Assembly: GCA_031374415.1 (NCBI GenBank)
Contig: JANMGB010000259.1
Span: forward strand, 5,169-69,168
DNA length: 64,000 nt
Direction: 5' to 3'
Source: Burkholderiales bacterium
GTDB lineage: Bacteria; Pseudomonadota; Gammaproteobacteria; Burkholderiales; Burkholderiaceae_C
The position numbers were made by a program, and so were the translations under genes. Every line of letters begins with the position of its first letter. Within the stretch, counting starts at the first letter, position 1. This document shows positions 51,118 through 63,862 of this stretch, piece by piece. The notes below the pieces were generated by a model that was not told the DNA's origin, ran no database searches, and saw only the letters and a list, made by a program, of their open reading frames with translations.

Positions 51118-51248
51118 TCCACGGGCGCTTTATGCGCCCGTTTCCAAACTGTCATACAAACCAAAACTCGCGAGCACGGTGCTCGCCAACATGCGCCTCG
51201 CGCGGCAAAGCACGGTCACCTGATCATCGGTGCCCTGCTTTTCGCAGC

Positions 51249-54200
51249 TCATCCCCGCGGCCCAGCTGAAGGCCGAACTTGGCGCCGTTGAAGCGCAGCC
51301 CGGCGGCCCTCAGCGCGGTCTTTGCCTTGCTGTGCAGCCGCCCCATCACCGCCCTCCTGGGACAGGTAAGCGCTCAAGCTTTGGATGGTCGGGAAGCGGA
51401 AAATGTCGGTGATCGACAAGTCACGCTGTAACACGTCACGCAACTTGCGATGTACCTGAACCGCCAACAAAGAGTGCCCGCCAAGATCGAAGAAATTGTC
51501 ACGCGTGCCCACTTGAGGCAGGTTGAGAACTTCCTTCCAAACGGTGGCAATTTGCTGCTCGGTGTCACCCGCTGGCGGCACGTAGGCCTCGGCCACCGGG
51601 GCTTGGGCGCCATCCGGTGCCGGCAGGGCCTTGCGGTCCACCTTGCCGTTGGGTGTTTGAGGCAAGGCCGACAGGGTCACGAAGTGTGAAGGCACCATGT
51701 AGTCGGGCAAGCGGTCCCGGAGGTGCTCTTTGAGCTCAGTCACGGTCGGTGATTGCTGCCCGGCCACCACGAAGTAGGCCACGAGCCGCAAGTCACCCGG
51801 AATGTCTTCACGCGCCACCACCACGGTTTCACGCACCGCCAGGTGATGGAGCAAGGCGGCTTCGATCTCGCCAAGTTCGATGCGGTAGCCACGCACTTTG
51901 ACCTGGTGATCCAGGCGGCCCAGGAACTCGACCGTACCGTCCGGCCTGAACATGGCCAGGTCACCGGTGCGGTACACACGCCCCCCTGTGGCGCCTCGAA
52001 CGGGGTGCGCGATGAAGCGCTCCGCGGTCAGCTCGGGTCGGTGCAGGTAGCCGCGAACGACACCACGCCCGCCGATGATCAACTCGCCTGGCACACCCAC
52101 TGGCACCGGTTGTTGGCGGGTGTCGAGGACGTAGAGCTCTTGGTTCACCAAGGGACGCCCGAGCGGCACAATGCCGTCAATACGCTCGACTCGGTGCACA
52201 GCCGACCAGATGGTGGTCTCGGTCGGGCCGTACATGTTCATGACCTCGCCCTGGCTGAGCAGGCTCTTGAGCTCCTGGGCCAATGAGGGCGGAAAGGCCT
52301 CGCCACCGATCATCATGCGTTTGAGCTGCGACAGGCCCTGCTTGGCCTTGTCATCAAGCAGAAGCATGCGGGCCATCGAGGGGGTGCATTGCAAATGCGT
52401 CACCCCGTGGCGCTGCATCAGGGCAGGCAGGGCATGGTCGGCGCTGGCCGAACGGCGCGGGGTCGCGATTTTGCGCAACTCGTTCAGATCGGTGAGGTGA
52501 GTCATGACCGTGGCGGAATCAATGCCAAAGTCGATCAGGCAGGCAATGTCGTCAACGCCGATGGCCTTGAGCTTGTCGATCATGACCAGGCAAGCCTCGG
52601 GCGTGCCGAACAGGCCACTGGTCTCGTAGTAGCGATTGAACGAGTGCTCAAGCAGGCCCGTCATCTCGTCGTCACTCAGGCTTTGCAGGTCAACGCCCGC
52701 GGCCGAGGTGTCCATGCCGTCGCGCTTCTTAAAGGCAGGGAACGACCAGGCGTATTGCTTGATGAGGCTGACTGAGCTGCGCAGGTACTCGATGAGCGGC
52801 AAGCGCACCTTCTCGCGCACATCGGCTTCATCCGACCCCACCAGCGTGTGCAGCATCAGGGACACATAGCCCTCACCGGGGTGCCCAGAGTCCTTCCACG
52901 CCTGGCGGTAGGCGGCGAGTTTGCCGGTGAGCTCGTCCACGCTTTGACCCAGCAAGTGGGTCAGGACAAAGGCACCCAGGCGACCCGCCGCGGCGAAGGT
53001 TTCCGGGTTACCGGCTGAGGTCACCCAGATCGGCAACTCTTTTTGCACCGGGCGCGGCAAGATGCTGATGTCGACCATCTCACCCGTCGCGCCAGGAAAA
53101 CCGACCTTCTCACCACGCCACAGTTTGCGCACGACGTCGATGTCGCGCAGCATGACTTGCTTGTTGGTGGCGAAATTTTCTGGGCGCAGCACAAAGTCGT
53201 TGGGCTGCCAGCCCGACGCAAACGAGATGCCCACGCGACCGCGAGAGATGTTGTCAACCACCGACCAGTCTTCAGCCACACGGATGGGGTGGTGCAAGGG
53301 CAGCACGACGCTGCCGGCGCGGATTTGAATGCGCTCGGTCACCGCCGCAATGGCCGCACTGGTGACTGCCGGGTTGGGATACAAACCACCGAAGGCATGG
53401 AAGTGCCGCTCCGGCGTCCAGATGGCTGCAAAGCCGTGCTGGTCGCCATAACGCGCGCCGTCGAGCAACAGCTTGTATTTGTTGTCGTTGTTTTCAGACT
53501 CATCGCTCGAAAAGTAGAACAAGCTGAAATCAATCGGGCGTGCCGCATGAGGCCCACGAGCCGGCGTGGCCGCAGAGCGGTCTTCGTTGGTGGCAATCAC
53601 CACCTTGTAGCCACGGGCGAGCGTCCAGCACAGCTCGAGCACGGAAATGTCGAAGCTCAAACTCGTGACCGCCAACCAAACGCCTGCAGGGTCTTGGCCC
53701 AGGTGCTGGTCCATGCCCGCGAAAAAATTGACGGCGTTGCGGTGCTCCACCATCACACCCTTGGGCTTGCCCGTCGAGCCCGAGGTGTAGATGACGTAGG
53801 CCAGGTGCTTGGGCTCGGCGCCGCCATCGAAACGCTCGGCGGATTCTTTGCCGATGCTGTCCCAATCGGCATCCAAGGCAATGACCGTGGCGCGGTGCGG
53901 CGGCAGGTCAGCGCGCAGGCGCTCTTGCGTCAGCAACACAGGCACCTTGGCATCTTCGACCATGTAGGCGATGCGATCTTTGGGATAGCTCGGGTCGAGG
54001 GGCAGATAAGCCCCACCCGCCTTTTGAATGGCCAGCAAGCCGACCATCATCTCAATGGAGCGCTCAGTGCACAGGCCCACCAACACATCCGGCCCCACCC
54101 CCAACGAAGCCAGGCGCCGAGCCAACTGATTGGCGCGGCGATCCAACTCGCTATAGCTGAGAGCCTGGTCTTCACAGACCAGAGCGATGTGCTCCGGGGT

Positions 54201-55943
54201 GCGGGCGACCTGCTCTTCAATCAGACGGTGCACGCAAGCATCCGAGCGCCAAGGGCCTTCGGTGGCATTCCACTGAGTGAGCACCTGGGCTTGCTCAGCA
54301 GCGCCCAGCAACGGCAACTCAGACAAATGACGTTGCGGATCGGCATCGGCGGCGCGAATCAGGGTGGCCCATTGGGACTGCATCTGGGCGACCACCGCGG
54401 CATTGAGCTTGGTGGCATCAAAGCACCAACGGCTTTGCTCACCTTGGCGACTCACGGCAATGGTGAGCTCGCTGCCAGGCAAGGGCTGAGCGGCATCCAG
54501 GCTGTCAACGATGATGACGGCCACGGGCAACACGCGCGGTGAGCCGTTGAGGGCCATGGCGCGAAGTTCGGGCGCCCGGGCGACCAGATCTGTGGCGTAG
54601 GTGACGCGCTTTCTGAGTTGAGTGAGTTCAGCCTGAGCTGCCGCCACGACCGCACCCGCACCTTGCGAAAAATCGAAGCTCATGCGCAAGGGCACTTGCC
54701 TTGCAAACCACCCCTCGACACCCCGAACCGCAGCGCTCAACGTGGCGTCGGAGAAGCCCACATCGAACACATCTTTGTCAGTCAGACGGGCCAGGTAGGC
54801 CAAAGTCAACGCCAGCACCTGATCCGCGCGCTCAGCACCCAGCGCGGGAGTGCCCGGCACAGGGGCATCACTGTGGCTGTAGTTGGCCCCGACCAACGGG
54901 GCACTGCGATCAATGTAGGGCAACTCAAGCAGCGTTTGACTGGCCAGGCGTTGTTGCCAGAAGCCCTCAAAACGAGCCACATCGGCGTTCAGGGTGGTCA
55001 GGCGGTCGGCCAGGGCCGGTGTCAAGGCATCAAACAACAAACCAGTGCGCAGCTGGAAGTGGGCTGCCGCCTCTTGGGCTGTCAAGACCTTGCCGTCCAA
55101 GGTCTCAAAACGCTGGAGCTTGATGTCCTGGCTGCCGGTGGCCACGGTCACGGCTTCGGCATCCACGGTGACCAAGGTGCCGGGCGCAGCACCTGAGGCG
55201 GTGTCCGTGACCGTCACTGCGCCCACCAACAGGGGCTGCCCGCTCCAGCTGGCTTTGGCGCCGCCTATCGGGTTGGCGTAACTGCCAAAATCGAGAGCGC
55301 GAATCAGCGTAGCGATGTGCGATGCATCCAGGGCCCAGTCGATGGCGCACGCGGCAGCGGGCCGGTCTTTTCGGCCGTAGTAGCGCCCGATCGGGGCTGA
55401 CTGAGGTTGCGCCTGCAAGCTGCCTGCCATGAGGCCACGCACGACAGGCTCAAAGCTGTCCATGCCCGCTTCAAAGCACTTGGTGTTGAGCGTGAGGGCC
55501 GTCTCATCAGGGGCCAGACTGACAGCACGTTGAGCAAGGATGGCGCCCTGGTCCACCTGTGCCGTCATCAGGTGCCAAGTGATGCCATGTTCAGCCTCAC
55601 CGTTGAGCATCGCCCAGATGGGGGTGTTCAAACCACCGTACGCTGGCAGGGGACCGTCGTGAAAGTTGATCGCTGCGCGAGTTGGCAGGGCAATGACTTC
55701 GGGGGGCAGTACCGAGAGATTGGTGATGCTGAAAAGATAGTCGAAGGGCCGCAGATCCTGGCTAGAGAGCATGGCCTGTGCGTTGTCCAATACTCGAATA
55801 CCGCGCTCGGCAGCCCAACGTTTGATGGGCTGAGCGCCTGACACGACCGCAACGATGTGGTGGCCTGCTTGCTCAAGAGTTTGAGCACATTGGATCAATA
55901 GGGACTCGGAACCGACCAGAACGCAGCGCCATGAATTAGACAT
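51249..55943 (-). CDS. NRPS: formyltransferase-like domain, condensation C-lobe remnant, adenylation domain interrupted by a luciferase-like monooxygenase, and T domain
   Basis: Fmt-like INFHDGPLPAYGG...VDQGAIL; A cores LAYVIYTSGSTGKPKGV, NMYGPTETT, YRTGDL, GRLDHQVKVRGYRIELGEIE, PNGKVDRKAL; LLM block FSLFYFSS...IWTPERHF...; PCP FFDLGGHSLLAVQV. Start is ATG 55943 or TTG 55958. Confidence 0.9.
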   Translation of the reverse strand: MSNSWRCVLVGSESLLIQCAQTLEQAGHHIVAVVSGAQPIKRWAAERGIRVLDNAQAMLSSQDLRPFDYLFSITNLSVLPPEVIALPTRAAINFHDGPLPAYGGLNTPIWAMLNGEAEHGITWHLMTAQVDQGAILAQRAVSLAPDETALTLNTKCFEAGMDSFEPVVRGLMAGSLQAQPQSAPIGRYYGRKDRPAAACAIDWALDASHIATLIRALDFGSYANPIGGAKASWSGQPLLVGAVTVTDTASGAAPGTLVTVDAEAVTVATGSQDIKLQRFETLDGKVLTAQEAAAHFQLRTGLLFDALTPALADRLTTLNADVARFEGFWQQRLASQTLLELPYIDRSAPLVGANYSHSDAPVPGTPALGAERADQVLALTLAYLARLTDKDVFDVGFSDATLSAAVRGVEGWFARQVPLRMSFDFSQGAGAVVAAAQAELTQLRKRVTYATDLVARAPELRAMALNGSPRVLPVAVIIVDSLDAAQPLPGSELTIAVSRQGEQSRWCFDATKLNAAVVAQMQSQWATLIRAADADPQRHLSELPLLGAAEQAQVLTQWNATEGPWRSDACVHRLIEEQVARTPEHIALVCEDQALSYSELDRRANQLARRLASLGVGPDVLVGLCTERSIEMMVGLLAIQKAGGAYLPLDPSYPKDRIAYMVEDAKVPVLLTQERLRADLPPHRATVIALDADWDSIGKESAERFDGGAEPKHLAYVIYTSGSTGKPKGVMVEHRNAVNFFAGMDQHLGQDPAGVWLAVTSLSFDISVLELCWTLARGYKVVIATNEDRSAATPARGPHAARPIDFSLFYFSSDESENNDNKYKLLLDGARYGDQHGFAAIWTPERHFHAFGGLYPNPAVTSAAIAAVTERIQIRAGSVVLPLHHPIRVAEDWSVVDNISRGRVGISFASGWQPNDFVLRPENFATNKQVMLRDIDVVRKLWRGEKVGFPGATGEMVDISILPRPVQKELPIWVTSAGNPETFAAAGRLGAFVLTHLLGQSVDELTGKLAAYRQAWKDSGHPGEGYVSLMLHTLVGSDEADVREKVRLPLIEYLRSSVSLIKQYAWSFPAFKKRDGMDTSAAGVDLQSLSDDEMTGLLEHSFNRYYETSGLFGTPEACLVMIDKLKAIGVDDIACLIDFGIDSATVMTHLTDLNELRKIATPRRSASADHALPALMQRHGVTHLQCTPSMARMLLLDDKAKQGLSQLKRMMIGGEAFPPSLAQELKSLLSQGEVMNMYGPTETTIWSAVHRVERIDGIVPLGRPLVNQELYVLDTRQQPVPVGVPGELIIGGRGVVRGYLHRPELTAERFIAHPVRGATGGRVYRTGDLAMFRPDGTVEFLGRLDHQVKVRGYRIELGEIEAALLHHLAVRETVVVAREDIPGDLRLVAYFVVAGQQSPTVTELKEHLRDRLPDYMVPSHFVTLSALPQTPNGKVDRKALPAPDGAQAPVAEAYVPPAGDTEQQIATVWKEVLNLPQVGTRDNFFDLGGHSLLAVQVHRKLRDVLQRDLSITDIFRFPTIQSLSAYLSQEGGDGAAAQQGKDRAEGRRAALQRRQVRPSAGPRG
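51354..51575 (-). other. NRPS thiolation (PCP) domain (approx.)
   Basis: aa ~1462-1535. DNFFDLGGHSLLAVQVHRKL. Confidence 0.85.
52464..53546 (-). other. luciferase-like (LLM) flavin monooxygenase domain inserted in the A domain (approx.)
   Basis: aa ~805-1165, lying between the A4 region (SFDISVLE) and the TPS/A5 region (LQCTPSMARMLL, NMYGPTETT). Confidence 0.75.
54279..54836 (-). other. condensation-domain C-terminal-lobe-like remnant (approx.)
   Basis: aa ~375-560. LAYLARLTDKDVFDVGF...GWFARQVPLRMSF resembles the C4/C5 region of C domains. No HHxxxDG is seen anywhere upstream. Confidence 0.45.
55059..55934 (-). other. NRPS N-terminal formyltransferase (Fmt/ArnA-FT)-like domain (approx.)
   Basis: aa ~9-300. 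Asn98/His100 lie in INFHDGPLPAYGG and Asp136 in VDQGAIL, positioned like the Fmt catalytic triad. Confidence 0.7.
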
Positions 55944-56301
55944 AGTTTGTAGTATCAATTTCGGAAAATAGAATTCGACTGTTGATCAAGCTCGCCAATA
56001 AGCGGTCGTGTCAGGAACTGCTGCTTCCACAGTGAGCGTTTGCCCTCACCGTGAGGGCTGACGCAGCTGTATTATCGACCCGCCAATGGGCTTTAGGCGA
56101 GGTCATCTTCCCCTCATTTTGGGGGACAGCGTGCGGTTTGACCGTGCATTTGGCGGATGCGCGCAACCCCAAGTCAGGCGCTAAAAACGCAGTTTCAACG
56201 CACAAAATCCGATTCCTGCACGGATTGTTTGCAGCGAGATAAACCGGATTGCTGTACTCGGGCGTTGCCCAAAAAGCACAGTAGACCAAACTGCTCAAGG
56301 A

Positions 56302-57495
56302 TCAAGGGGCTGGCCACCAAGTGGCAGCGTCATCGCTGGGGTCAAAGTACAGTGGGTTGCTGGCGTCGAGTTGGGAGAAACGTTTTACACACTGTTTCAT
56401 GTGGCGGCCAGACCGCCAGGAGGCGACCCAACCCGTTTCTCGTTGAGACCACTGCGTCCAAAACACACTGCAAAACTGGTCCCGATATTGGCTTTGACAG
56501 GCCGGCAAGCTGAGGGTGGTGGCTTGTGCCAAGTCAGCAGAGATCACCTCCCAGGCGACTTCCTGTAGAGATCGAGCCTGCGTGGCGGTGACCCCCTCTG
56601 GCGCCCAAGCGCCCACGGGGGAGCGCTGGTAAATGGCCCCGAAATTCAGCAGCGCCGTGTAATAACTGCCCAGGGGTGTCAGGTGCACTTGGTCGGAAAA
56701 CAACAACTCGACGGTGGCAGCCACGCTAGCTTGCGTGACACCTGGCAAGCCCTGCGCGCTCGTGGCCCGCTCAATCAACTGCGCCAGGGCAGCCCCCGCC
56801 GGGATGGTGTGGACGCGATCGGCCCTGCCCTTGGCTGCCAAAGACATATTGACGCGGGTAGCGACGCAACGCCACATCGGCGAGGCCGCACGCTCATAGG
56901 CGATCCAGTCCGCCGGCTGGCTGGTATCCCTGATGTTGGACCAAGGCTCAAACAGGTAAGTTTGAGCCTTTGAGTTGGCCGCCATAGAGCGCTCATGAAA
57001 ATGAAGCAAAGCCGGGATCGTGTCTTCCCAAATGAGTGAACCCGCCAGACCATGAAGCTCGGTCATCAACAGCGTGTCATAGGGGCCACCGGGCACGGTT
57101 TGGGGCGCACGCAACTCGGCCAGGACATCGAGTCCCTGACCCTCACGGTTGTCGCCTTGCCTGTAGCCTGACCAGGGCTCGCTGCCCGGCGCCCCTCGGG
57201 TGCGCGCTTGGATGGATGAACCCACCACAATCTGGTGGTTAAACCACAGTGGCTTGGACAAACTCTCTGCGATGCTTGCCAGATGGGCTGGCATGGGTAC
57301 GTTGGTCAAACTATGACCCGATATGAATACTCGCGCAGCCTCACGCGCCACAGGCACAGGCTTGGCCATGGTTTCCAGTGCCAAAGGAGAAGCCGGTCGG
57401 GGGGACGGGGCGCAGGCACAAAGCATCATCACCCCAAACACCACAAGAGCCTGTGCACGAAGGCGAAACCAACGGAGTGGCAACATAGATTTCAT
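56302..57495 (-). CDS. putative SGNH/GDSL-fold hydrolase lipoprotein
   Basis: Signal peptide ending in the lipobox-like LCAC. Block I-like VFISGHSLT and block V-like FSDQVHLTPLG (DxxH). The ATG overlaps the upstream stop (ATGA at 57492-57495). The fold call is tentative. Confidence 0.5.
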   Translation of the reverse strand: MKSMLPLRWFRLRAQALVVFGVMMLCACAPSPRPASPLALETMAKPVPVAREAARVFISGHSLTNVPMPAHLASIAESLSKPLWFNHQIVVGSSIQARTRGAPGSEPWSGYRQGDNREGQGLDVLAELRAPQTVPGGPYDTLLMTELHGLAGSLIWEDTIPALLHFHERSMAANSKAQTYLFEPWSNIRDTSQPADWIAYERAASPMWRCVATRVNMSLAAKGRADRVHTIPAGAALAQLIERATSAQGLPGVTQASVAATVELLFSDQVHLTPLGSYYTALLNFGAIYQRSPVGAWAPEGVTATQARSLQEVAWEVISADLAQATTLSLPACQSQYRDQFCSVFWTQWSQRETGWVASWRSGRHMKQCVKRFSQLDASNPLYFDPSDDAATWWPAP

Positions 57496-59186
57496 TGATG
57501 GGCTGAGGGATCACTCAAATAGTGACTCAAGGGCGAGCCACCCTTGTCGATGGCGGCGCGAATCAACTGCTCAAGGACATGCACGTTCCAAACTTTGCCA
57601 TAGGACAACTCGCCCCGAAGCGGATCTTGTTTGGCTTCAATCACGAGGCACCCCTTGCCACGAGACAGCTTCGACTCGGCCCAGCTCAAGCGCCCGCCAC
57701 GCAGCACCACGCCTTCGTCTTGCACCTGCCAGGCGCCAACGGTCAGTGTGCGCCCTGCTTTGAGCGCATGCGCCATTTCGTACATCAGCCGCACACACAC
57801 AGCGCGCCACAAGCTGTCGGTAAACGCCGTGTACGCCGCCTCGGCTCGCATGCGAATTGTCAGGGTGCGAGTTGAATCAGCGATCTCAACGCTGTGATAA
57901 GTGCCAACCGGAAAACCATGGAGCAACTGGCGATTGCTTTCCCAACGCACCTGCGCAATATCGCTCAAACGCAGGTGTTGACCCTGCCAGCTCACCCCCT
58001 CCGGGTCAATGCGCAAGGGGTGTTTAGACCACAGACCCACCTGGGCCTGAAATGAAATCGCACGCCGCCACTCAACGTCCCAGCGTTGCACCTGGAGTCG
58101 CTCTTCCTCGATCTCCTTGAGACGCAGCGCATCAGACTCAAGCTGCTCGCGAACACGCGGCACGGCTGCGAAGAGATCGAGCGACGCGGTCGTCATGCGG
58201 TGCGCCATCGACCACAGGCCATGCTGATTGAACAAGCTCACACCCAACTCGCGCAACTCACCCGCCAGTTGCTCGCTGTGAACGTTGGCCATACCGCGGG
58301 CCTTCATGCTGAGCTGGATAGGACGCGCGACATGGCACCAGTGGCGGGCAACCAACAACACTTGTTCGACGGCGGGGGCAACCGTGGCCTCACCCTCGGC
58401 TCCCTGGGCCAAGATACGCTCGCCCAGTTTGGCCATGTTCTCGCGCTCAGCCTCCAGGACGGCCTGGGTTTCGAGTGCATAGGCATCCACCAAGTCATCG
58501 ATCAGCGCGCAAGCAGTCACTGAGCCTTGAGCCGTTGCGCGACTGACCAGGGCTGTCATGGTATCCACCAGCATGGCCGACGGCATGCGGTCAAGAAAGT
58601 CCATCAGCACATCTTTGTACTGCTTGCGTATCGATGACAGCACGTCATCGACGGCGGCCAAATCATGCACCTCAGGAAAGCCAGACACCTTCCGATCGCT
58701 GTTCACGCTGGCAACAATCTCAGTGACTTCAAGGCGCTCGACCACCGCACCAAACTCACGGATAAATTCAGCCATCCTGGTTTCGTCGGAAACTCGAGGC
58801 GTCATGCGCTCAAAGCCAGCACACATGAGGTTGGCGCGAGCCAACGGTGGCAAACCAGCCGGGCGCGCCATCACGCGAACAGGGTCTGCTGCGAGAGACG
58901 CCAAGAGGTTATCGACCACACCTGCCTCAACGCCAGAGAACCAACCCAGCTCCGCACGCAAACGGGTGCGTGGGTTCGTCAGGTCAGAGCGTGCACGCTG
59001 GCACAGCGCCTGATCACCATGCAAACCGCGCTCTTCGGCATGCTCGATGATGGTGCGGCGATCGTCCAAGGGCGTCACCCCCAACACAGAAAAAGGGTTT
59101 GAGCCCAGGAGATCAGACCTTGCCTCAGAGGCCTTGGGATTGACACGCATGATGTTTCGTTCGGTCCTGCTCACATGGGCACGCAC
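57492..59186 (-). CDS. J-domain-like protein (HGD in place of HPD) with large uncharacterised C-terminal region
   Basis: N-terminus NPFSVLGVTPLDDRRTIIEHAEERGLHGDQALCQRARSDLTNPRTRLRAEL has the helix I-III layout of a J domain. Start is GTG 59186 (16-nt overlap with the upstream gene) or ATG 59150. Confidence 0.6.
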   Translation of the reverse strand: MRAHVSRTERNIMRVNPKASEARSDLLGSNPFSVLGVTPLDDRRTIIEHAEERGLHGDQALCQRARSDLTNPRTRLRAELGWFSGVEAGVVDNLLASLAADPVRVMARPAGLPPLARANLMCAGFERMTPRVSDETRMAEFIREFGAVVERLEVTEIVASVNSDRKVSGFPEVHDLAAVDDVLSSIRKQYKDVLMDFLDRMPSAMLVDTMTALVSRATAQGSVTACALIDDLVDAYALETQAVLEAERENMAKLGERILAQGAEGEATVAPAVEQVLLVARHWCHVARPIQLSMKARGMANVHSEQLAGELRELGVSLFNQHGLWSMAHRMTTASLDLFAAVPRVREQLESDALRLKEIEEERLQVQRWDVEWRRAISFQAQVGLWSKHPLRIDPEGVSWQGQHLRLSDIAQVRWESNRQLLHGFPVGTYHSVEIADSTRTLTIRMRAEAAYTAFTDSLWRAVCVRLMYEMAHALKAGRTLTVGAWQVQDEGVVLRGGRLSWAESKLSRGKGCLVIEAKQDPLRGELSYGKVWNVHVLEQLIRAAIDKGGSPLSHYLSDPSAHQ

Positions 59187-60859
59187 TTGTTTTCAGGGCC
59201 GGGCAAGCACCACCACAGAGGGCGCTCAGCGGGCTCGACGCGCTTGGGCATGCGAGGTGCGGACGCATTCGCAGGGGGAGCGGTTGGCGTTGCATTGACA
59301 GACGCCGGCGGGGCGGGAGGCCGCAAGGGTTGGTCGTCGAGCACATCGTCGCGACGGGCGAGCCAATCTGACTTCGCGCGTGCCTCGATTTGACCGCGGT
59401 CAGCCTCGACCACAGCGACGACGCGCTGCAACTCGCTGCGCTCGTACTTAAAGTTTCGGCACCGGGCGTTGTAATCGTTGAGCAGATCGTTGTACCGACT
59501 CACCTCTTTAGCCACCTCCGCACGCACCAGTTGGTTCTGCGTGTTCAAACGCATATTTTGCGCCACGCAATAGCGAATTTGCCCCGCCTCCAGCAATCGA
59601 CCCTCACCTCCAACGGGAGGACGCGACTCCGCGGGCAGCTCAGCAGGTTGAACTGGAACAACATCCCGGGGTGGAGGTGGAGGTGACTGCGGCGCAGGCT
59701 CTGCTGTGCGCTCAGGCAGTGGGGGCGGCGCAGCCGCTGTCGCCGATACCGGTGGGGCGGGCGCCGCCGCCGAAGCGCTTGGCGCCCCAGGGGGTGCGAT
59801 CTTGGGACGCTCTGGCGTCGTCACCTTGGGTGAGTCGGCCTGCGGCCGCGCATTGGGGCGCTCATAGCGCGAGAACCATTGCACCACACCCACCGCCAAT
59901 GCGACGACCAGCAACAGGCCCGCGGCCAACCAAATCCACACGGCCACACCACCACCGCTGTGGGGCGGGCGCAAACCAGGTACGCCATATGCAGGTGGAT
60001 CAGGGACCACCTGCGCAGGTGCAGATGGCATCGACATCGAAGGCGGTGGCGCCTCGGGCGTGACCGCCTGCGCCAACGGCGGAGCTGGCACAGGCGCCCC
60101 GGGGCCTGCTTGCGCCCCCGGCAACAGCGGTGGGGGCAAAGGCGGCAAGGCGCCAGCTGCTGGCGATGGGGGCGGCAAAGGGGGCAACATCTCTGCCACA
60201 GCGGGAGCGTCAGACGTGTCGGGGCCAGACTCAAGGACGCCCATCACCGTACAGTCCACAAGCACCGGCAGCTCTCCATTGCCATCTTGCCAGCTTGGCT
60301 CGACACGCCCCGGGGGCGGCGCAAGTGCGTGAAACGAAGGCCCTGGCAGCAATGCGGACGATGGATCCGAGACCACAAAAGGCAACGGTGGGGGCAGTGC
60401 AGGCTGTTTGGGCTGCAGACCTGCCCAGGTGGGCGTGGGCGTGGGCGTGGGCGTGGGCGTGGGCGTGGGCGTGGGCGTGGGTGCAGGTGCAGGTGCAGGT
60501 GCAGGTGCAGGTGCAGGTGCAGGTGCAGGTGCAGGTGCAGGTGCAGCCATGGCAGCCGGCGTAGGCGTAGGCGTAGGCGTAGGCGTGGGCGCCTCAGGCG
60601 CAACAGGTGGCGGCGTCAGACCTGGCACGCCAGGGCCAGTGGGCAAGGCAAAGGCCGTAGGCACCTGAAACGCACTGGGCGAAATGTAAGAAGTGGGCGC
60701 CACGTAGGCGGATCGGGCAACGGGCAGCCGTGTGGGCGGCTCGACACGCTGCTCAATCGACTTCTCAGGCTTCACACCGCCCCGCCCATTGGGGAACAGA
60801 TCGGCCAAACCAGCAAAACCCTGAGCTGGCGGATGTGATGGCTGACGTGGCTCTCTCAT
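59171..60859 (-). CDS. proline-rich single-pass membrane protein with (PT)n/(PA)n repeats
   Basis: 562 aa. AGGA SD 8 nt upstream of the ATG. About 300 aa of Pro-rich N-terminal region, one TM helix (VAVWIWLAAGLLLVVALAVGVVQWF, aa ~300-325), a Pro-rich linker, then a helical Cys-containing C-terminal domain. Confidence 0.7.
   Translation of the reverse strand: MREPRQPSHPPAQGFAGLADLFPNGRGGVKPEKSIEQRVEPPTRLPVARSAYVAPTSYISPSAFQVPTAFALPTGPGVPGLTPPPVAPEAPTPTPTPTPTPAAMAAPAPAPAPAPAPAPAPAPAPAPTPTPTPTPTPTPTPTPTWAGLQPKQPALPPPLPFVVSDPSSALLPGPSFHALAPPPGRVEPSWQDGNGELPVLVDCTVMGVLESGPDTSDAPAVAEMLPPLPPPSPAAGALPPLPPPLLPGAQAGPGAPVPAPPLAQAVTPEAPPPSMSMPSAPAQVVPDPPAYGVPGLRPPHSGGGVAVWIWLAAGLLLVVALAVGVVQWFSRYERPNARPQADSPKVTTPERPKIAPPGAPSASAAAPAPPVSATAAAPPPLPERTAEPAPQSPPPPPRDVVPVQPAELPAESRPPVGGEGRLLEAGQIRYCVAQNMRLNTQNQLVRAEVAKEVSRYNDLLNDYNARCRNFKYERSELQRVVAVVEADRGQIEARAKSDWLARRDDVLDDQPLRPPAPPASVNATPTAPPANASAPRMPKRVEPAERPLWWCLPGPENKCVPM
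60431..60587. repeat. three adjacent perfect hexanucleotide tandem arrays inside the Pro-rich gene
   Basis: (GGGCGT)x8 at 60431-60478, (GTGCAG)x11 at 60481-60546, and (GGCGTA)x4 plus GGCGTG at 60558-60587. On the coding strand they encode the PT and PA dipeptide runs. Confidence 0.95.
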
Positions 60860-60980
60860 CTGATGATCCTAAGACGAAACCCACTGGCCGCGGGGCGTGG
60901 GAACGGGCAACGGCCGGCCAAAGAGGGCTCCACCAGGCAACTCATGGCTGAAAGGGATCCAACTTGTCCAGAGGCATCGA

Positions 60981-63479
60981 TTAACCGATCAAGATGTTCG
61001 AGTGCGCAAGAAGTTGGTCATCGGCCCCCCAGCGAATGCGCGTGGACTCCAGAACGTCGAGCGTCTGACGCAACTTGTCCATCTCATTGTGCTCAAGGGC
61101 CAGACGGCCCGCCTCAACGAGTTCGGCGTGTTCGTCGACATTGGGAAAGAAGTGGGTGGACTCGGCCAGCCAATTGAACCGGTCCACCACGAACCAGTCT
61201 TGGCGGAAGAGGATTTCCCAATTTTTGCCTCGCAACTCTTGCAAATAGCCTTCAAAGTCGCCGCTGTTGTTGCCAATGGCCCGACGAGCGGTGTTGACCA
61301 GGTGATCGAAGGCGGTGGTCTCAGCGGGGCGGGCGTGCTTGCGCACGCTCTCATCAAACACCTTGACGCAGTTGTCGAGCTCGATCTTGCGAATGACGCG
61401 CAGATGGGTCTTGCGGGCGACAGCCAGCAATTTTTTGGCTTCCTGCACGTCGTCCATCGCCTGCTTCGCCAACTCTGGGTCGCCGTCCGTCTCGCAAGCA
61501 GCGGCGGCACGCTCAAGGCGGCGAATAGCCTGCGCCAGCATGGGATCATCGACCGCCCCAGCGACATCATCAATGCGCGCCGCCACACGTTCCGCTTCGT
61601 CAGCAATGCGCTTAGAGGCCACCGAAAAGTCGATCTGCCCCTCCTGCCGTGAATAATAGTTGCGGCCGCTTTGGAAGTTGCCACCGATGGAGGGCACGGT
61701 CAGCTCCATGCGGATGTTGCCGGAGTCAAGCACTTCGTACTCGAGCACCAGATCCACCCCTTTACCGATGACGCCTTCAGAGAAGTCTGAGCCACGAACC
61801 TCGAACATGCCAATGAAGCGGTTGTCAGAGACGGGGTCGTCAATGGCGCCTTCCCAGAGCTTGAACTTCAATGAACTGGGCTCGCCAGCGCGCAGGGCCT
61901 CATCGGCCTTGAAAGTCTTTTTGCCCTTCTTTGGCAGGGGCTCGCCCTCGCGAACAAGGTAGTCCAAGATGAAACGCCCGCCGAGCTTCTCGCGCGCCTC
62001 AACCCCCACCGAATGGGAGGCTGGAATCGCATCGATTTGTGCTGCAGTGCGCGCAATGACAATCTTGTCTTGCGACAACTCAACCGGCCCGCCTGCGCTG
62101 TCAAAGGCAAATAGCTTGAAGGTGTTTTCACCCGCCTTGCTCAAAGGCACCTCGACTGAAGCACCATCTTGCAAGGCAAGACTGCCTGAGGTCCAGCCCG
62201 TGTCAAGGCTGTCGAGCTGAAAAGCCGCACCCGGCAAGACCTCGCCCACCAGCTTGGCGACGATTTTGGCTTTGCTATCAGGCGTGCGTGCAACGTAATT
62301 GAATGCCAGCTGAACCTCACCCCCCTCGGCCGAAATTTCGCCTCGACCGCTCTTGCGACTTCGATTGTGGGTTGTCCAATCGATGGATTCAGCAAACACC
62401 GCAGCGCCCTCTGACACCGCGGTCATGGGATTGACCTCGGTCGATGCGGCAATGCCCAGCTCACCAGCCACCTTGTCACGCAATGGCTTGTATTGAGTGG
62501 GCCCACCGACAAACACCACGCAACCGACGTCATGCGGCGACAAACCCGATTTGCTCATGGTTTCGCGCACGGCCGCAATCGACTCATCGACTTTGTCCTT
62601 GATCAACGCATCAAAGGCAGCACGAGTCACGGGGATGTCGAGGTAAATGTCCTTGCCCTGGCGGTCACGCACCCCCAGCTCGCTGTCGTCCAGGCTGATG
62701 ATGGACTCCAGCTTGGCCGACAACTCGATCTTGGCGCGCTCGGTGGCCCAGGCGGCCATGTGCCGCAGGGTCGCGTACTGTTTGTCGATAGAAAAGTTCT
62801 CGGGCAAATCAAAGTGCTCAAACAACCAAGGCTTGACGATGTTGTCCATCATCAGGCGGTCAAAGTCACGGCCACCGCACATGGCAATGCCACCGTGCGC
62901 CAACAAGCTGACACGGCCGTTGATGCTCTCCGCGATGGCCACATCCAGCGTGCCGCCACCCAGGTCATAGACCAAAAAGATGCCATCGATCTTGCGCTGG
63001 CGCATCACACTCATGACCGCCGCCACGGGCTCTTGCATCAGCGCCACTTTGCCCAAGCCCGCGGCCTCTGCGGCGGCCAGGCTGGCATCTTTTTGCATTT
63101 GGTTGAACGCCGCAGGCACGGTGATGACCGTGCCGGTGTCGGGGTCGTTGCGGATTTCTTCGGGCAAGTAACCGTACAACACACGCAAAATTTCAGCCGA
63201 ACAATCCTCAGGGCTCATCACCATGTCAACAGCTTCAAGGCGGATGGGGGTGCTGGTGCCCATCAAGCGCTTGAACAGCGTCGCGGCGTTGTCAGGGTTG
63301 CGCGCGGCGTTGTCGTAGGCGCGTTTGCCCACATACTTGTTCCCCCGACGATCAATGAAAATAGCCGACGGCGTGACGTCGTTTTGTTCGGGGCTTTTGA
63401 AAATACGCACATGCTCACCATCAAAGGTGGTGATGGCGCTGTTGGTGGTGCCCAAGTCGATGCCGACATAATATTTCAT
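60981..63479 (-). CDS. atypical Hsp70-family ATPase (832 aa)
   Basis: NBD motifs GIDLGTTNSAI, VITVPAAFNQMQKDA, MQEP, LVYDLGGGTLDVAI and VVFVGGPTQ. SBD-beta-like block IPASHSVGVEA...LKFKLWEGA...FIGMFEV...VDLVLEYEVLDSGNIRMELTV. Also has an extra internal insert and a long C-terminal helical region. Confidence 0.9.
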   Translation of the reverse strand: MKYYVGIDLGTTNSAITTFDGEHVRIFKSPEQNDVTPSAIFIDRRGNKYVGKRAYDNAARNPDNAATLFKRLMGTSTPIRLEAVDMVMSPEDCSAEILRVLYGYLPEEIRNDPDTGTVITVPAAFNQMQKDASLAAAEAAGLGKVALMQEPVAAVMSVMRQRKIDGIFLVYDLGGGTLDVAIAESINGRVSLLAHGGIAMCGGRDFDRLMMDNIVKPWLFEHFDLPENFSIDKQYATLRHMAAWATERAKIELSAKLESIISLDDSELGVRDRQGKDIYLDIPVTRAAFDALIKDKVDESIAAVRETMSKSGLSPHDVGCVVFVGGPTQYKPLRDKVAGELGIAASTEVNPMTAVSEGAAVFAESIDWTTHNRSRKSGRGEISAEGGEVQLAFNYVARTPDSKAKIVAKLVGEVLPGAAFQLDSLDTGWTSGSLALQDGASVEVPLSKAGENTFKLFAFDSAGGPVELSQDKIVIARTAAQIDAIPASHSVGVEAREKLGGRFILDYLVREGEPLPKKGKKTFKADEALRAGEPSSLKFKLWEGAIDDPVSDNRFIGMFEVRGSDFSEGVIGKGVDLVLEYEVLDSGNIRMELTVPSIGGNFQSGRNYYSRQEGQIDFSVASKRIADEAERVAARIDDVAGAVDDPMLAQAIRRLERAAAACETDGDPELAKQAMDDVQEAKKLLAVARKTHLRVIRKIELDNCVKVFDESVRKHARPAETTAFDHLVNTARRAIGNNSGDFEGYLQELRGKNWEILFRQDWFVVDRFNWLAESTHFFPNVDEHAELVEAGRLALEHNEMDKLRQTLDVLESTRIRWGADDQLLAHSNILIG

Positions 63480-63862
63480 GATTCAACCGATCCCTCTGCA
63501 AGTTTCAACAACACGGTTCCGGCTTTCACGAGCCCTGTCGAGCCCATGACCACGGGCTCCACCATTTGCTCAACCACCAACACGTCATCCGGGCCAAAGT
63601 CACCGATGTTGAGCGGCGACGCGGCCATCCCGGGGTCATACATCTGGCCCTCCAGGCTGACGATTCGCATGTCCACCATGGCCAGACTCTCGTCCACCCG
63701 CTTCAGGAAATAACGCATTTGGTTGGCATACCGTGCGGCTTCGGCTGCGTCGAGCCGCGTCAACATGCGCCCAAACACCTTGGCAAACCGCCAACTCTCC
63801 AGGGCCATGTCAATGAGGGGTTGCTGCAAGCTGGCATCAGCCCCACTGTCTGTGCTGATCAT
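63476..63862 (-). CDS. GrpE-like nucleotide-exchange-factor candidate (128 aa)
   Basis: The C-terminal part (VSLEGQMYDPGMAASPL...DDVLVVEQMVEPVVMGSTGLVKAGTVLLK) resembles the GrpE beta-domain pattern G-x-FDP...V-x-GY-x-RPA-x-V. GGAAG SD before the ATG at 63862. Its stop overlaps the Hsp70 ATG (ATGA). Confidence 0.55.
   Translation of the reverse strand: MISTDSGADASLQQPLIDMALESWRFAKVFGRMLTRLDAAEAARYANQMRYFLKRVDESLAMVDMRIVSLEGQMYDPGMAASPLNIGDFGPDDVLVVEQMVEPVVMGSTGLVKAGTVLLKLAEGSVES

What the first reader, a model, noticed from the sequence alone, without database searches (positions are those of the whole stretch)
56302..63862. Self-contained non-canonical Hsp70 module: GrpE-like, 832-aa Hsp70, Pro-rich membrane protein, J-like protein, SGNH-like lipoprotein
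Five same-strand genes are packed like one operon. The junctions are an ATGA overlap at 63476-63479, a 121-nt gap, either a 16-nt overlap or a 20-nt gap at about 59171-59186, and an ATGA overlap at 57492-57495. A 340-nt gap then separates the module from the NRPS gene. Together the genes encode all three actors of an Hsp70 cycle (exchange factor, Hsp70, J-like cochaperone) plus two envelope-targeted proteins. None of them looks like housekeeping dnaK/dnaJ/grpE. The Hsp70 has an extra insert and a long tail, the J-like protein lacks HPD and has no Zn-finger or DnaJ C-domains, and the GrpE-like protein is only 128 aa. I cannot match this gene combination to any characterised system. One hypothesis is a dedicated chaperone machine that handles or anchors the Pro-rich envelope-spanning protein and the lipoprotein hydrolase. 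Another is a stress or conflict (for example anti-phage) module that uses Hsp70 as sensor or switch. Both are speculation.
Basis: partly seen in the sequence, partly recalled or inferred. Interest (0 to 1): 0.85.

Follow-up and report, generated by a model that had tools for sequence, protein, structure and literature searches.

The report
Decayed mobile Hsp70–GrpE-like envelope cassette
The window holds a damaged copy, missing its AAA+ motor gene, of a widespread and apparently undescribed mobile gene cassette that couples an unusual Hsp70, a GrpE-like exchange factor and a Cdc48-like ATPase to tagged cell-envelope proteins.

Summary
The five ORFs and their junctions are as described, but the five-gene module is drawn wrongly.

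- **Conserved cassette.** 82 related loci from many phyla show an invariant order: 124-aa protein, ~830-aa Hsp70, ~480-aa Cdc48-like AAA+ ATPase, single-pass envelope protein, ~550-aa protein.
- **The 121-nt gap is a deletion scar.** A strain with the same flanking genes (87% nt identity) still has the AAA+ gene. The window lacks ~1.3 kb and keeps only the gene's first ~70 and last ~25 nt.
- **The lipoprotein is a neighbour.** It occurs only in that one strain and in none of the other loci.
- **GrpE-like is supported by fold only.** The AlphaFold2 model has pLDDT 90 and its nine best PDB matches are all GrpE.
- **J-like is not supported.** There is no conserved HPD motif, no HMM match and no fold match.
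- **Shared tag.** The envelope proteins carry a cytosolic N-terminal tag, GF[AS]GLSxLVSDV[DE]. Up to three different membrane proteins per locus share it.
- **Mobility.** The cassette rides on ICEs, Tn7-like transposons, plasmids and integrase islands.

I found no description of it in the literature. My best guess is an ATP-driven machine that remodels its own tagged envelope proteins, probably in a conflict or defence role. The function is untested.

The parts
63476..63862 (-). GrpE-like small protein (128 aa). Its stop overlaps the Hsp70 start in ATGA.
   Evidence: ORF. 374 homologues, all named 'hypothetical', none with a Pfam domain. AlphaFold2 model has pLDDT 90: two long helices plus a C-terminal beta domain. 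The nine best Foldseek PDB matches are all GrpE, E 5e-4 to 6e-2. It precedes the Hsp70 gene in 76 of 76 loci.
60981..63479 (-). Non-canonical Hsp70 (832 aa). NBD 62382-63479; beta-rich insert 62046-62381; divergent SBD-beta-like region 61680-62045; helical tail 60984-61679.
   Evidence: Pfam HSP70 E=6e-55 over aa 79-364. 32% identity to E. coli DnaK residues 1-377, with the DLGTTNS, K70, E171 and DLGGGT motifs kept. A diverse family profile aligns colinearly with DnaK residues 407-616; 1 of 2000 shuffles reaches that score. Homologues are 55-92% identical across phyla.
60860..60980 (-). Deletion scar of the Cdc48-like AAA+ ATPase gene. It keeps a frameshifted first ~70 nt and the last ~25 nt.
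   Evidence: blastn shows window 63915-60911 = L003 9559-12571, then window 60884-60635 = L003 13937-14189; alignment. L088, with the same flanks, carries a 465-aa AAA gene and the window lacks L088 6829-8137. The AAA family profile matches p97/VAT/NVL in the PDB at E 1e-64.
59171..60859 (-). Single-pass envelope protein (562 aa). Cytosolic N-terminal tag 60782-60820 (GFAGLADLFPNGR); Pro-rich linker with perfect hexanucleotide repeats 60429-60591; TM helix 59867-59947; conserved two-Cys extracytoplasmic domain 59351-59623.
   Evidence: Homologues carry PG_binding_1 or SLT domains C-terminal of the TM helix, which sets the N-in/C-out topology.
57492..59150 (-). 552-aa helical plus tandem PH-like protein (alternative GTG start at 59186). 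Small N-terminal helical domain 58941-59117; helical domain 58056-58925; beta+helix modules 57759-58052 and 57546-57746.
   Evidence: An identical 552-aa gene call exists in public data (P0241). AlphaFold2 model has pLDDT 89.5. There are sub-threshold DUF6585 matches in the C-terminal modules of 14 of 38 members. No J-domain signal.
56302..57495 (-). Putative lipoprotein (397 aa). It is a neighbour on the NRPS/PKS flank, not part of the cassette.
   Evidence: No tblastn hit in L001-L085. An 85%-identical homologue occurs only in L088, next to the same NRPS. No Pfam, NCBIfam or PDB match.

Best explanation
The window carries a crippled copy of a conserved, horizontally mobile five-gene cassette. 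The genes are:
(i) a GrpE-like nucleotide-exchange factor, translationally coupled to
(ii) an ~830-aa Hsp70 with an intact ATPase domain, an inserted beta domain, a very divergent substrate-binding domain and a long helical tail;
(iii) a single-ring Cdc48/p97-like AAA+ unfoldase, which is deleted in this window;
(iv) a single-pass envelope protein, made of a short cytosolic N-terminal tag GF[AS]GLSxLVSDV[DE], a variable linker, a TM helix and a conserved two-Cys periplasmic domain, followed in relatives by variable peptidoglycan-binding, lytic-transglycosylase or Cys-repeat domains;
(v) a ~550-aa helical protein ending in tandem PH-like modules, or in a TM anchor in some relatives.

Proposed mechanism (inferred). 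The cytosolic ATPases recognise the shared N-terminal tag of the cassette's own envelope proteins. Protein (v) acts as a membrane-proximal adaptor. The ATPases then remodel or extract those envelope proteins, which makes an ATP-driven switch linking the state of the peptidoglycan and envelope to a cytosolic response.

Because the cassette is accessory cargo of ICEs, Tn7-like transposons, plasmids and integrase islands, I think its most likely role is in conflict or defence against phages or other mobile elements. In this window the AAA+ motor is gone, so the full mechanism cannot run. The four remaining genes are intact and still look constrained.

Shown: gene content, synteny, the deletion, domain homologies, tag sharing, mobility. 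Inferred: who binds the tag, extraction or remodelling, and the biological role.
For: - Synteny. The small gene precedes the Hsp70 gene in 76 of 76 loci. The AAA gene follows it in 73 of 74. All five genes are present in 53 of 55 loci long enough to tell. The loci span Beta-, Gamma- and Alphaproteobacteria, Planctomycetota, Nitrospira, Acidobacteriota, Geobacteraceae and Armatimonadota.
- Deletion of the AAA gene.
- GrpE-like fold.
- Hsp70 ATPase motifs kept. Weak colinear similarity to the DnaK substrate-binding domain.
- The AAA protein is Cdc48/p97/VAT-like, with Walker A GPPGCGKT, Walker B DEME and RRGRFD.
- Envelope protein topology, from PG_binding_1 and SLT domains and two invariant Cys.
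- The tag is shared by two membrane proteins in 18 loci and by three in one locus.
- Mobility. Tn7-like cargo on a Shewanella plasmid. A PFGI-1-class ICE in P. aeruginosa. Integrase, toxin-antitoxin and transposase neighbours. Integrases, Tn3 transposases, type I restriction-modification genes, reverse transcriptases and Cas1 among 135 sampled flanking ORFs. Distant small+Hsp70 pairs sit next to a DNA methyltransferase, a UvrD-helicase/ATP-dependent-endonuclease pair and a RES toxin.
- Repeated decay of copies, as expected for costly accessory systems: the window, L048, L055, L063 and L092.
- Constraint. Pairwise dN/dS is 0.04-0.25. The window branch is not relaxed: 180 synonymous/49 non-synonymous changes against 192/39, p=0.24.
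Against: - No protein of the cassette has a recognisable toxic or effector domain such as a nuclease, NADase or pore.
- No PADLOC model matches and no experiment exists.
- Known defence genes make up only a modest share of sampled neighbours, and I ran no background control.
- The Hsp70 is unusually conserved for a defence gene: about 70% identity over the whole protein's best hits, which are mostly Betaproteobacteria, and 55-65% over the C-terminal half across phyla.
- Which component binds the tag is unknown.
- The similarity to the DnaK substrate-binding domain is marginal. It is not found by Pfam, by the PDB HMM search or by hhalign against a single DnaK sequence.
- The window's tag is degenerate in its second half (GFAGLADLFPNG).
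Confidence: 0.45

Rival explanations
1. A mobile stress-tolerance or envelope-proteostasis module. The Hsp70/GrpE-like/AAA+ set maintains, inserts or clears membrane and periplasm-spanning proteins under heat, oxidants or envelope damage. This would be analogous to transmissible heat-resistance islands that carry extra chaperones and proteases.
For: - All enzymatic parts are proteostasis-type ATPases.
- The Hsp70 and AAA proteins are very strongly conserved (dN/dS 0.04).
- Many hosts come from wastewater, sludge or soil.
- No effector domain was found.
- The accompanying proteins are envelope proteins with peptidoglycan-binding or SLT domains.
Against: - The envelope proteins encoded in the cassette carry a dedicated shared tag, which points to self-contained clients rather than general proteostasis.
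- The distribution is rare and sporadic: 269 matching stretches in a collection of 185,579 species genomes.
- Copies decay frequently.
- No sHsp, ClpK/ClpG or DegP-type genes were seen among the neighbours listed (only the 25 most frequent families are shown).
Confidence: 0.25
2. A function that serves the carrier element itself, such as ICE or transposon establishment, mating-pair or cell-wall remodelling during conjugation, or entry exclusion.
For: - In P. aeruginosa the cassette and six further conserved envelope genes lie inside a PFGI-1-class ICE, between an SNF2 helicase/HTH_17 pair and PilL2, TIGR03759 and TraG.
- Some envelope proteins carry a lytic transglycosylase domain.
- The cassette also occurs on conjugative plasmids.
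Against: - The same cassette is Tn7-like cargo with no conjugation genes nearby.
- It sits at chromosomal sites without mobility genes in the window's lineage.
- The extra six genes are present in only 10-23 of ~70 loci.
Confidence: 0.12
3. One reading: a self-contained five-gene Hsp70 cycle (GrpE-like, Hsp70, J-like cochaperone) that handles the Pro-rich membrane protein and the SGNH-like lipoprotein.
For: GrpE-like fold. Tight gene packing. The envelope protein is conserved in the cassette.
Against: - The lipoprotein is absent from all other loci.
- There is no support for a J-domain or for SGNH.
- The conserved AAA+ member is missing here because of a deletion, so the set is not self-contained.
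- The long Pro-rich linkers are seen only in this lineage (window, L008); other homologues examined have 4-14% Pro.
Confidence: 0.07
4. This is the housekeeping DnaK-DnaJ-GrpE system of the organism.
For: None beyond the Hsp70 nucleotide-binding-domain homology.
Against: - It scores 207 bits against the DnaK equivalog cut-off of 822.
- It is 32% identical to DnaK over the nucleotide-binding domain only.
- It is found in a small fraction of species and on ICEs, Tn7-like elements and plasmids.
- There is no DnaJ.
Confidence: 0.01

Closest known systems
Canonical DnaK-DnaJ-GrpE chaperone system
   Same: An Hsp70 ATPase domain with its catalytic motifs. A partner with a GrpE-like fold encoded immediately upstream and translationally coupled. 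Probably a beta-sandwich plus helical-lid substrate-binding region.
   Different: - About 830 aa, with a ~110-aa insert where the VLLLD linker would be and a ~230-aa extra helical tail.
- The GrpE-like protein is 124-128 aa and is not detected by the GrpE Pfam model.
- No J-domain protein.
- An obligatory Cdc48-like AAA+ partner and dedicated envelope proteins.
- Sporadic and mobile rather than universal.
E. coli HscC with membrane-anchored DjlB/DjlC (specialised Hsp70 acting at the membrane; PMC8215388)
   Same: A specialised, non-essential, horizontally spread Hsp70 with partners at the inner membrane. Some homologues of the 550-aa protein are tail-anchored, like DjlB and DjlC.
   Different: HscC is 550-580 aa, needs no exchange factor, and its partners have bona fide J-domains with HPD. 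Here there is a GrpE-like factor, no HPD, an AAA+ partner and tagged envelope proteins.
Hsp70 working with AAA+ unfoldases: Hsp70-ClpB/Hsp104 disaggregase; Cdc48/p97 and Msp1 extraction of membrane proteins (established knowledge of these families)
   Same: Co-occurrence of an Hsp70 system with an AAA+ unfoldase of the classical clade. The closest solved relatives are p97, VAT and NVL. The likely substrates are membrane proteins.
   Different: The AAA+ protein has a single ring-forming domain with a novel ~240-aa N-domain, unlike the two-ring ClpB. It is encoded in one operon with its presumed substrates. No ubiquitin-like or protease partner was seen.
Hsp70-like modules in predicted or known defence systems: CoCoNuT CnuD (PMC11090510) and DnaK-like fusions to EACC1-protease modules (PMC12642450)
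   Same: They set a precedent for Hsp70-family ATPases recruited into mobile conflict systems.
   Different: Those are fused to or paired with McrBC-type GTPases, HEPN RNases or proteases, and often have degenerate ATPase motifs. This cassette has none of those partners and keeps its ATPase motifs. PADLOC finds no match.
Transmissible locus of stress tolerance / locus of heat resistance (own knowledge, not tested against its sequences)
   Same: A mobile island of extra proteostasis genes spread among Beta- and Gammaproteobacteria.
   Different: That island carries sHsps, the two-ring ClpK/ClpG, DegP, thioredoxin and KefB, and no Hsp70. No shared genes were recognised here.

Membership tests
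Hsp70 (PF00012) | Actin-like nucleotide-binding domain that matches the family HMM | tested here: met
   Pfam HSP70 E=6.2e-55, 187 bits against a cut-off of 20.6.
Hsp70 (PF00012) | Catalytic and phosphate-binding motifs (D8, K70, E171, DLGGGT) | tested here: met
   BLASTP alignment to E. coli DnaK: IDLGTTNS, FKRLMG, QEPVAA and YDLGGGTLD are conserved.
Hsp70 (PF00012) | C-terminal beta-sandwich substrate-binding domain plus helical lid | tested here: inconclusive
   No match from Pfam, the PDB HMM search or hhalign. A diverse family profile aligns colinearly with DnaK 407-616 at 8.6 bits, a score reached by 1 of 2000 shuffles. No structure model was made of this region.
DnaK (housekeeping equivalog, TIGR02350 / NF001413) | Score above NCBIfam's curated cut-off | tested here: not met
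   207 bits against a cut-off of 822; 205 against 648.
GrpE (PF01025) | Match to the family HMM | tested here: not met
   No Pfam or NCBIfam match. The family HMM finds no GrpE in the PDB. hhalign against E. coli GrpE pairs the expected regions, but only at E=0.069.
GrpE (PF01025) | GrpE fold: long helices plus a C-terminal beta domain | tested here: met
   AlphaFold2 model with pLDDT 90. Foldseek ranks 1-9 are all GrpE chains (9a81, 9bls, 1dkg, 3a6m, 9blt, 4ani, 8gb3), E 5e-4 to 6e-2, probability 0.82-1.0, TM-score 0.37-0.54.
GrpE (PF01025) | Nucleotide-exchange activity on its Hsp70 | not testable with these tools
   Only the gene linkage is known: an ATGA overlap here, and the gene sits upstream of the Hsp70 gene in 76 of 76 loci.
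J-domain proteins (PF00226) | Match to the DnaJ HMM | tested here: not met
   0 of 22 N-terminal domains match, even at E<=10. The window protein has no Pfam or NCBIfam match.
J-domain proteins (PF00226) | Conserved HPD tripeptide between helices II and III | tested here: not met
   The family consensus at that position is L-x-L-D-H-D-x-C. The window's 'HGD' is not conserved across the family.
J-domain proteins (PF00226) | Four-helix J fold | tested here: inconclusive
   The model has short helices at residues 19-23, 31-44, 47-58 and 60-68. The full-length Foldseek search shows no J-domain among its top 50 matches and nothing at E<=1e-3. The isolated domain could not be searched.
SGNH/GDSL hydrolases | Match to a family HMM or to a solved structure | tested here: not met
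   No Pfam, NCBIfam or PDB match for the 397-aa protein.
Classical AAA+ (PF00004), Cdc48/p97-like | AAA domain with Walker A, Walker B and arginine fingers | tested here: not met
   In the window the gene is deleted and only a 121-nt scar remains. In relatives the feature is met: PF00004 E=6e-30, PDB profile matches to NVL, VAT and p97 at E 1e-64 to 1e-57, and GPPGCGKT, DEME and RRGRFD are invariant.
Known anti-phage defence systems (PADLOC-DB v2) | Match of any component to a defence-system HMM | tested here: not met
   Only a 13.8-bit, E=0.004 match of the Hsp70 to PDC-M61B. The relatives' AAA protein gives a generic 80-bit match to IetA against a cut-off of 510.

The most novel reading that the evidence does not exclude
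The cassette is a new class of bacterial conflict or immune system. A dedicated Hsp70/GrpE-like pair and a Cdc48-like AAA+ unfoldase read out, or pull on, peptidoglycan-anchored single-pass sensor proteins through a shared cytosolic N-terminal tag. This would be a prokaryotic counterpart of eukaryotic membrane-protein extraction by Hsp70 and Cdc48, here used as an envelope-breach switch.
Probability: 0.3. Interest if true: 0.85.

Novelty: new variant of a known kind. Interest (0 to 1): 0.68.

Why it matters
[quoted passage not shown] This finding gives one such derivative a defined genetic system:
- a fixed set of partners;
- a candidate recognition tag shared by its envelope proteins;
- a clear mobile lifestyle;
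- presence in tractable or clinically relevant hosts, including P. aeruginosa, Achromobacter, Aeromonas, Serratia, Legionella, Bordetella and Comamonas.

If it is a defence system, it would add a chaperone-based mechanism that senses the envelope. If it is a stress module, it would be a new transmissible proteostasis island. Either way, the tag, the ATPases and the naturally occurring AAA-less copy in this window make the question directly testable.

Tried and rejected
- **Family scans of the five proteins.** Pfam, NCBIfam and PADLOC recognise only the Hsp70 nucleotide-binding domain.
- **HMM searches against the PDB.** Profiles for the small protein, the Hsp70 C-terminal half, the N-terminal domain of the 552-aa protein and the periplasmic domain found nothing meaningful.
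- **hhalign against single E. coli DnaK, GrpE and DnaJ sequences.** All were insignificant. Single-sequence templates are weak, so this is not strong negative evidence.
- **Foldseek of the 552-aa model.** No match at E<=1e-3 in the PDB or among viral models.
- **Phage origin.** No match in 50,697 phage genomes and only 6 in 2.9 million IMG/VR contigs, so I rejected a viral origin.
- **E. coli.** No near-identical DNA in 5,426 E. coli genomes (megablast only).
- **Relaxed selection after the loss of the AAA gene.** Not detected.
- **Promoter and terminator scan.** Uninformative.
- **Literature.** Nine searches found no description of this gene set, and the Tn7-cargo survey does not mention Hsp70. 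Subscription-only papers were not searchable.
- **Defence-gene enrichment among neighbours.** I sampled 135 flanking ORFs but had no background control, so this counts as weak evidence only.

Full report
**1. The observation**

All five minus-strand ORFs exist with the stated junctions.
- The small gene is best read as 128 aa, from the ATG at 63862. Homologues are 123-129 aa and align from residue 1.
- An identical 552-aa gene call for the fourth protein exists in public data (P0241). A close relative is called from the upstream GTG (P0242, 564 aa).
- Profile scans recognise only the Hsp70 nucleotide-binding domain (PF00012, E=6e-55). They find no GrpE, DnaJ or SGNH family and no PADLOC defence model.

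**2. What the module really is**

The Hsp70 has many full-length relatives that are 67-92% identical.
- small protein;
- Hsp70;
- AAA ATPase (PF00004, ~480 aa);
- a membrane protein;
- a ~550-aa protein.

I scanned one genome per species (185,579 species) with a profile of the family-specific C-terminal half of the Hsp70. This gave 269 confirmed stretches, and I kept 80 loci. They come from Beta-, Gamma- and Alphaproteobacteria, Planctomycetota, Nitrospira, Acidobacteriota, Geobacteraceae and Armatimonadota.

I mapped the window's proteins onto these loci by tblastn:

| Test | Result |
|---|---|
| Small gene precedes the Hsp70 gene | 76 of 76 loci |
| AAA gene follows within a few bases | 73 of 74 loci with enough sequence (the exception, L055, has a truncated Hsp70) |
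| All five genes present | 53 of 55 loci long enough |
| Gene order | envelope protein then 550-aa protein in 51; reversed in 2 |
| Hits to the 397-aa lipoprotein | none |

**3. The 121-nt gap is a deletion scar**

- The window aligns to L003 up to 66 nt into the AAA gene. The alignment resumes ~15 nt before the AAA gene's stop.
- The gap still reads ATGCCTCTGGAC... with a 2-nt frameshift, and ends ...GTGGGTTTCGTCTTAG. These match the start and end of the AAA gene.
- L088 is a strain with 87% nucleotide identity. It has the same upstream region and the same downstream lipoprotein, NRPS and PKS genes. It carries an intact 465-aa AAA gene, and the window lacks L088 6829-8137. The loss is therefore specific to the window's lineage.
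- The remaining genes show no decay. Pairwise dN/dS against L088 is 0.07 (small), 0.04 (Hsp70), 0.25 (envelope protein) and 0.12 (552-aa protein). These equal the values between two intact copies.
- With L003 as outgroup, the window branch has 180 synonymous and 49 non-synonymous changes, against 192 and 39 on the L088 branch (p=0.24). Either the deletion is recent, or the remaining four genes retain some function.

**4. The lipoprotein**

It has an 85%-identical homologue only in L088. L003 shares the upstream flank but diverges immediately after the 550-aa gene. The lipoprotein therefore belongs to the NRPS/PKS side. It has no family or PDB match.

**5. The components**

(a) **Small protein.**
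- It has 374 homologues, all unnamed.
- The AlphaFold2 model (pLDDT 90) has two long helices and a C-terminal beta domain.
- The nine best PDB matches are all GrpE, from E. coli, human mitochondria, Thermus, Geobacillus and M. tuberculosis (E 5e-4 to 6e-2). The next match is at E=0.56.
- Sequence methods do not reach GrpE.
- I accept 'GrpE-like fold' and leave exchange activity untested.

(b) **Hsp70.**
- It is 32% identical to the DnaK nucleotide-binding domain and keeps the catalytic motifs.
- A ~110-aa beta-rich insert follows.
- Next comes a segment with the spacing pattern of the substrate-binding beta domain. It aligns colinearly with DnaK 407-616 when a diverse family profile is used. 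The score is 8.6 bits, and 1 of 2000 shuffles reaches it.
- The protein ends in a ~230-aa helical tail.
- The family is deep: 625 clusters at 50% identity match the C-terminal half, and full-length ~825-865-aa members go down to 25% identity.

(c) **AAA+ protein (in relatives).** It has a single classical AAA domain, closest to the NVL, VAT and p97 domains (E 1e-64). Walker A, Walker B and the arginine fingers are invariant. The ~240-aa N-domain is novel.

(d) **Envelope protein.**
- Its layout is an N-terminal motif, a linker, one TM helix, a linker, a conserved ~90-aa domain with two invariant cysteines, and variable C-terminal domains.
- The variable domains include PG_binding_1, SLT and Cys-rich repeats. 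These place the C-terminus outside the cytoplasm and the N-terminus inside.
In the window it partly consists of perfect hexanucleotide repeats at 60429-60591.

(e) **The 552-aa protein.**
- The AlphaFold2 model (pLDDT 89.5) shows a small N-terminal helical domain, a long helical domain and two beta+helix modules that look PH-like.
- Those modules give sub-threshold DUF6585 matches in 14 of 38 members.
- Seven of the 27 aligned homologues replace the C-terminus with a hydrophobic anchor. Long variants begin with a CxxC...CxxC zinc ribbon.
- The N-terminal sequence NPFxxLGV...ARSDLTNPRxRLxAE resembles a J-domain to the eye, but every test failed. No HPD is conserved, 0 of 22 members match DnaJ Pfam, no J-domain appears in the PDB HMM search, and none appears among the top Foldseek matches.

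**6. A shared tag**

The motif GF[AS]GLSxLVSDV[DE] lies 15-30 residues from the N-terminus of the envelope protein. In 18 loci it is also found on a second, unrelated single-pass membrane protein encoded a few genes downstream, and in one locus on a third. This is the strongest hint to mechanism: the cytosolic machinery probably recognises a common handle on several envelope proteins. In the window the motif reads GFAGLADLFPNG (60782-60820), and L088 has the same variant.

**7. Genomic lifestyle**

- On a Shewanella plasmid the cassette directly follows tnsABCDE, so it is Tn7-like cargo.
- In P. aeruginosa it lies in a PFGI-1-class ICE.
- In Methyloversatilis and Paraburkholderia it is flanked by integrases, transposases, MazEF and DUF4365.
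- On a Vibrio plasmid it lies near a PLD-domain protein, an integrase, RelE/ParE and a group II intron.
- Distant small+Hsp70 pairs on Sinorhizobium and Aminobacter plasmids have different partners. They sit beside a large DNA methyltransferase, a UvrD-helicase/ATP-dependent-endonuclease pair, or a RES toxin.
- A sample of 135 non-redundant flanking ORFs includes integrases, Tn3 transposases, type I restriction-modification methylases, reverse transcriptases, Cas1, WYL and ICE proteins, alongside ordinary housekeeping genes. I had no background control.
- The cassette is essentially absent from phages.
- An identical 550-aa protein is annotated as MULTISPECIES across Pseudomonadota, which indicates recent transfer.
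- In the window's lineage the cassette is resident. Its dS matches that of the neighbouring NRPS.
- Ten to 23 loci carry up to five further conserved genes downstream: proteins of 214, 165, 350 and 217 aa and an RDD protein. In L086 and L100 a ~92-95-aa protein follows them. None of these genes is in the window.

**8. Mechanism**

Shown: the parts list, their homologies, the tag sharing, the topology, the mobility and the deletion.

Inferred: the Hsp70/GrpE-like pair and the AAA+ unfoldase act on the tagged N-termini of the cassette's own envelope proteins, with the 550-aa protein as a membrane-proximal adaptor. This would couple the state of the cell wall to an ATP-dependent remodelling or extraction step.

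I favour a conflict or defence role (about 0.45) because of the mobile, sporadic and frequently decayed distribution and the variable envelope component. A transmissible stress or envelope-proteostasis role (0.25) and an element-serving role (0.12) remain open. The absence of a recognisable effector is the main weakness of the defence reading. In this window the system lacks its AAA+ motor.

**9. Comparison with known systems**

The cassette works like an Hsp70 system, with an ATPase and an exchange factor, joined to a Cdc48-type unfoldase. It is not DnaK/DnaJ/GrpE and it is not HscC/DjlBC. It is not any system in PADLOC. It differs from the Hsp70-like modules of CoCoNuTs (PMC11090510) and from the EACC1-protease fusions (PMC12642450).

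A 2026 review states that DnaK derivatives other than HscA and HscC are unexplored (PMC13580251). Nine literature searches found no description of this cassette. Papers behind subscription could not be searched, so an earlier comparative-genomics mention cannot be excluded.

**10. Verdict**

The J-like assignment, the SGNH assignment and the five-gene boundary do not.
- The specific copy in this window is degenerate.
- It nevertheless points to a widespread and apparently uncharacterised Hsp70-centred mobile system with a testable recognition tag.

Noticed in passing
L086 11864 and 16526; L010 12867, 16992 and 19047; window 60782-60820: The N-terminal motif GF[AS]GLSxLVSDV[DE] is shared by two or three otherwise unrelated single-pass membrane proteins in the same locus. 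46 loci have one copy, 18 have two and 1 has three.
   Followed up: partly
L086 18211-18840 and 18859-19137: The RDD-family protein and the 92-aa two-TM protein that follows it begin with the same peptide, MAYEDPNAPS. This is a second shared N-terminal motif in the extended gene cluster.
   Followed up: no
window 60429-60591: Three adjacent hexanucleotide tandem arrays (8.8, 11.2 and 5.7 copies; 100%, 100% and 96% matches) encode (PT)n and (AP)n in the cytosolic linker of the envelope protein. This stretch does not align with the close relative L088, so the linker length probably varies by slippage.
   Followed up: partly
L086 13280-13360 (N-terminus of the 672-aa homologue of the 552-aa protein): Long variants of the 'J-like' protein start with a CxxC...CxxC zinc ribbon and a ~125-aa extension that the window's copy lacks.
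   Followed up: no
L048, L055, L063, L092: Other decayed copies exist: frameshifts in the small and AAA genes (Achromobacter sp. M1), a truncated Hsp70 and a frameshifted AAA gene in two copies from one Accumulibacter MAG, and an ISNCY insertion in the Hsp70 gene of a Sinorhizobium medicae plasmid.
   Followed up: partly
window 44566-55958: Two very large minus-strand ORFs lie next to the module, of 2183 aa and 1569 aa. Their L088 counterparts (83% nt identity) carry PKS domains (ketoacyl-synt, Acyl_transf_1, KR) and an unusual NRPS-like set (Formyl_trans_N/C, AMP-binding, Bac_luciferase, PP-binding). The 397-aa lipoprotein travels with this cluster.
   Followed up: no
L100 1444-4077 and L027 5808-8132: An SNF2/ResIII-type helicase of ~760 aa lies just upstream of the cassette in 7 loci. 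In the P. aeruginosa ICE copy (L100) a DUF6094 protein and an HTH_17 gene accompany it.
   Followed up: no
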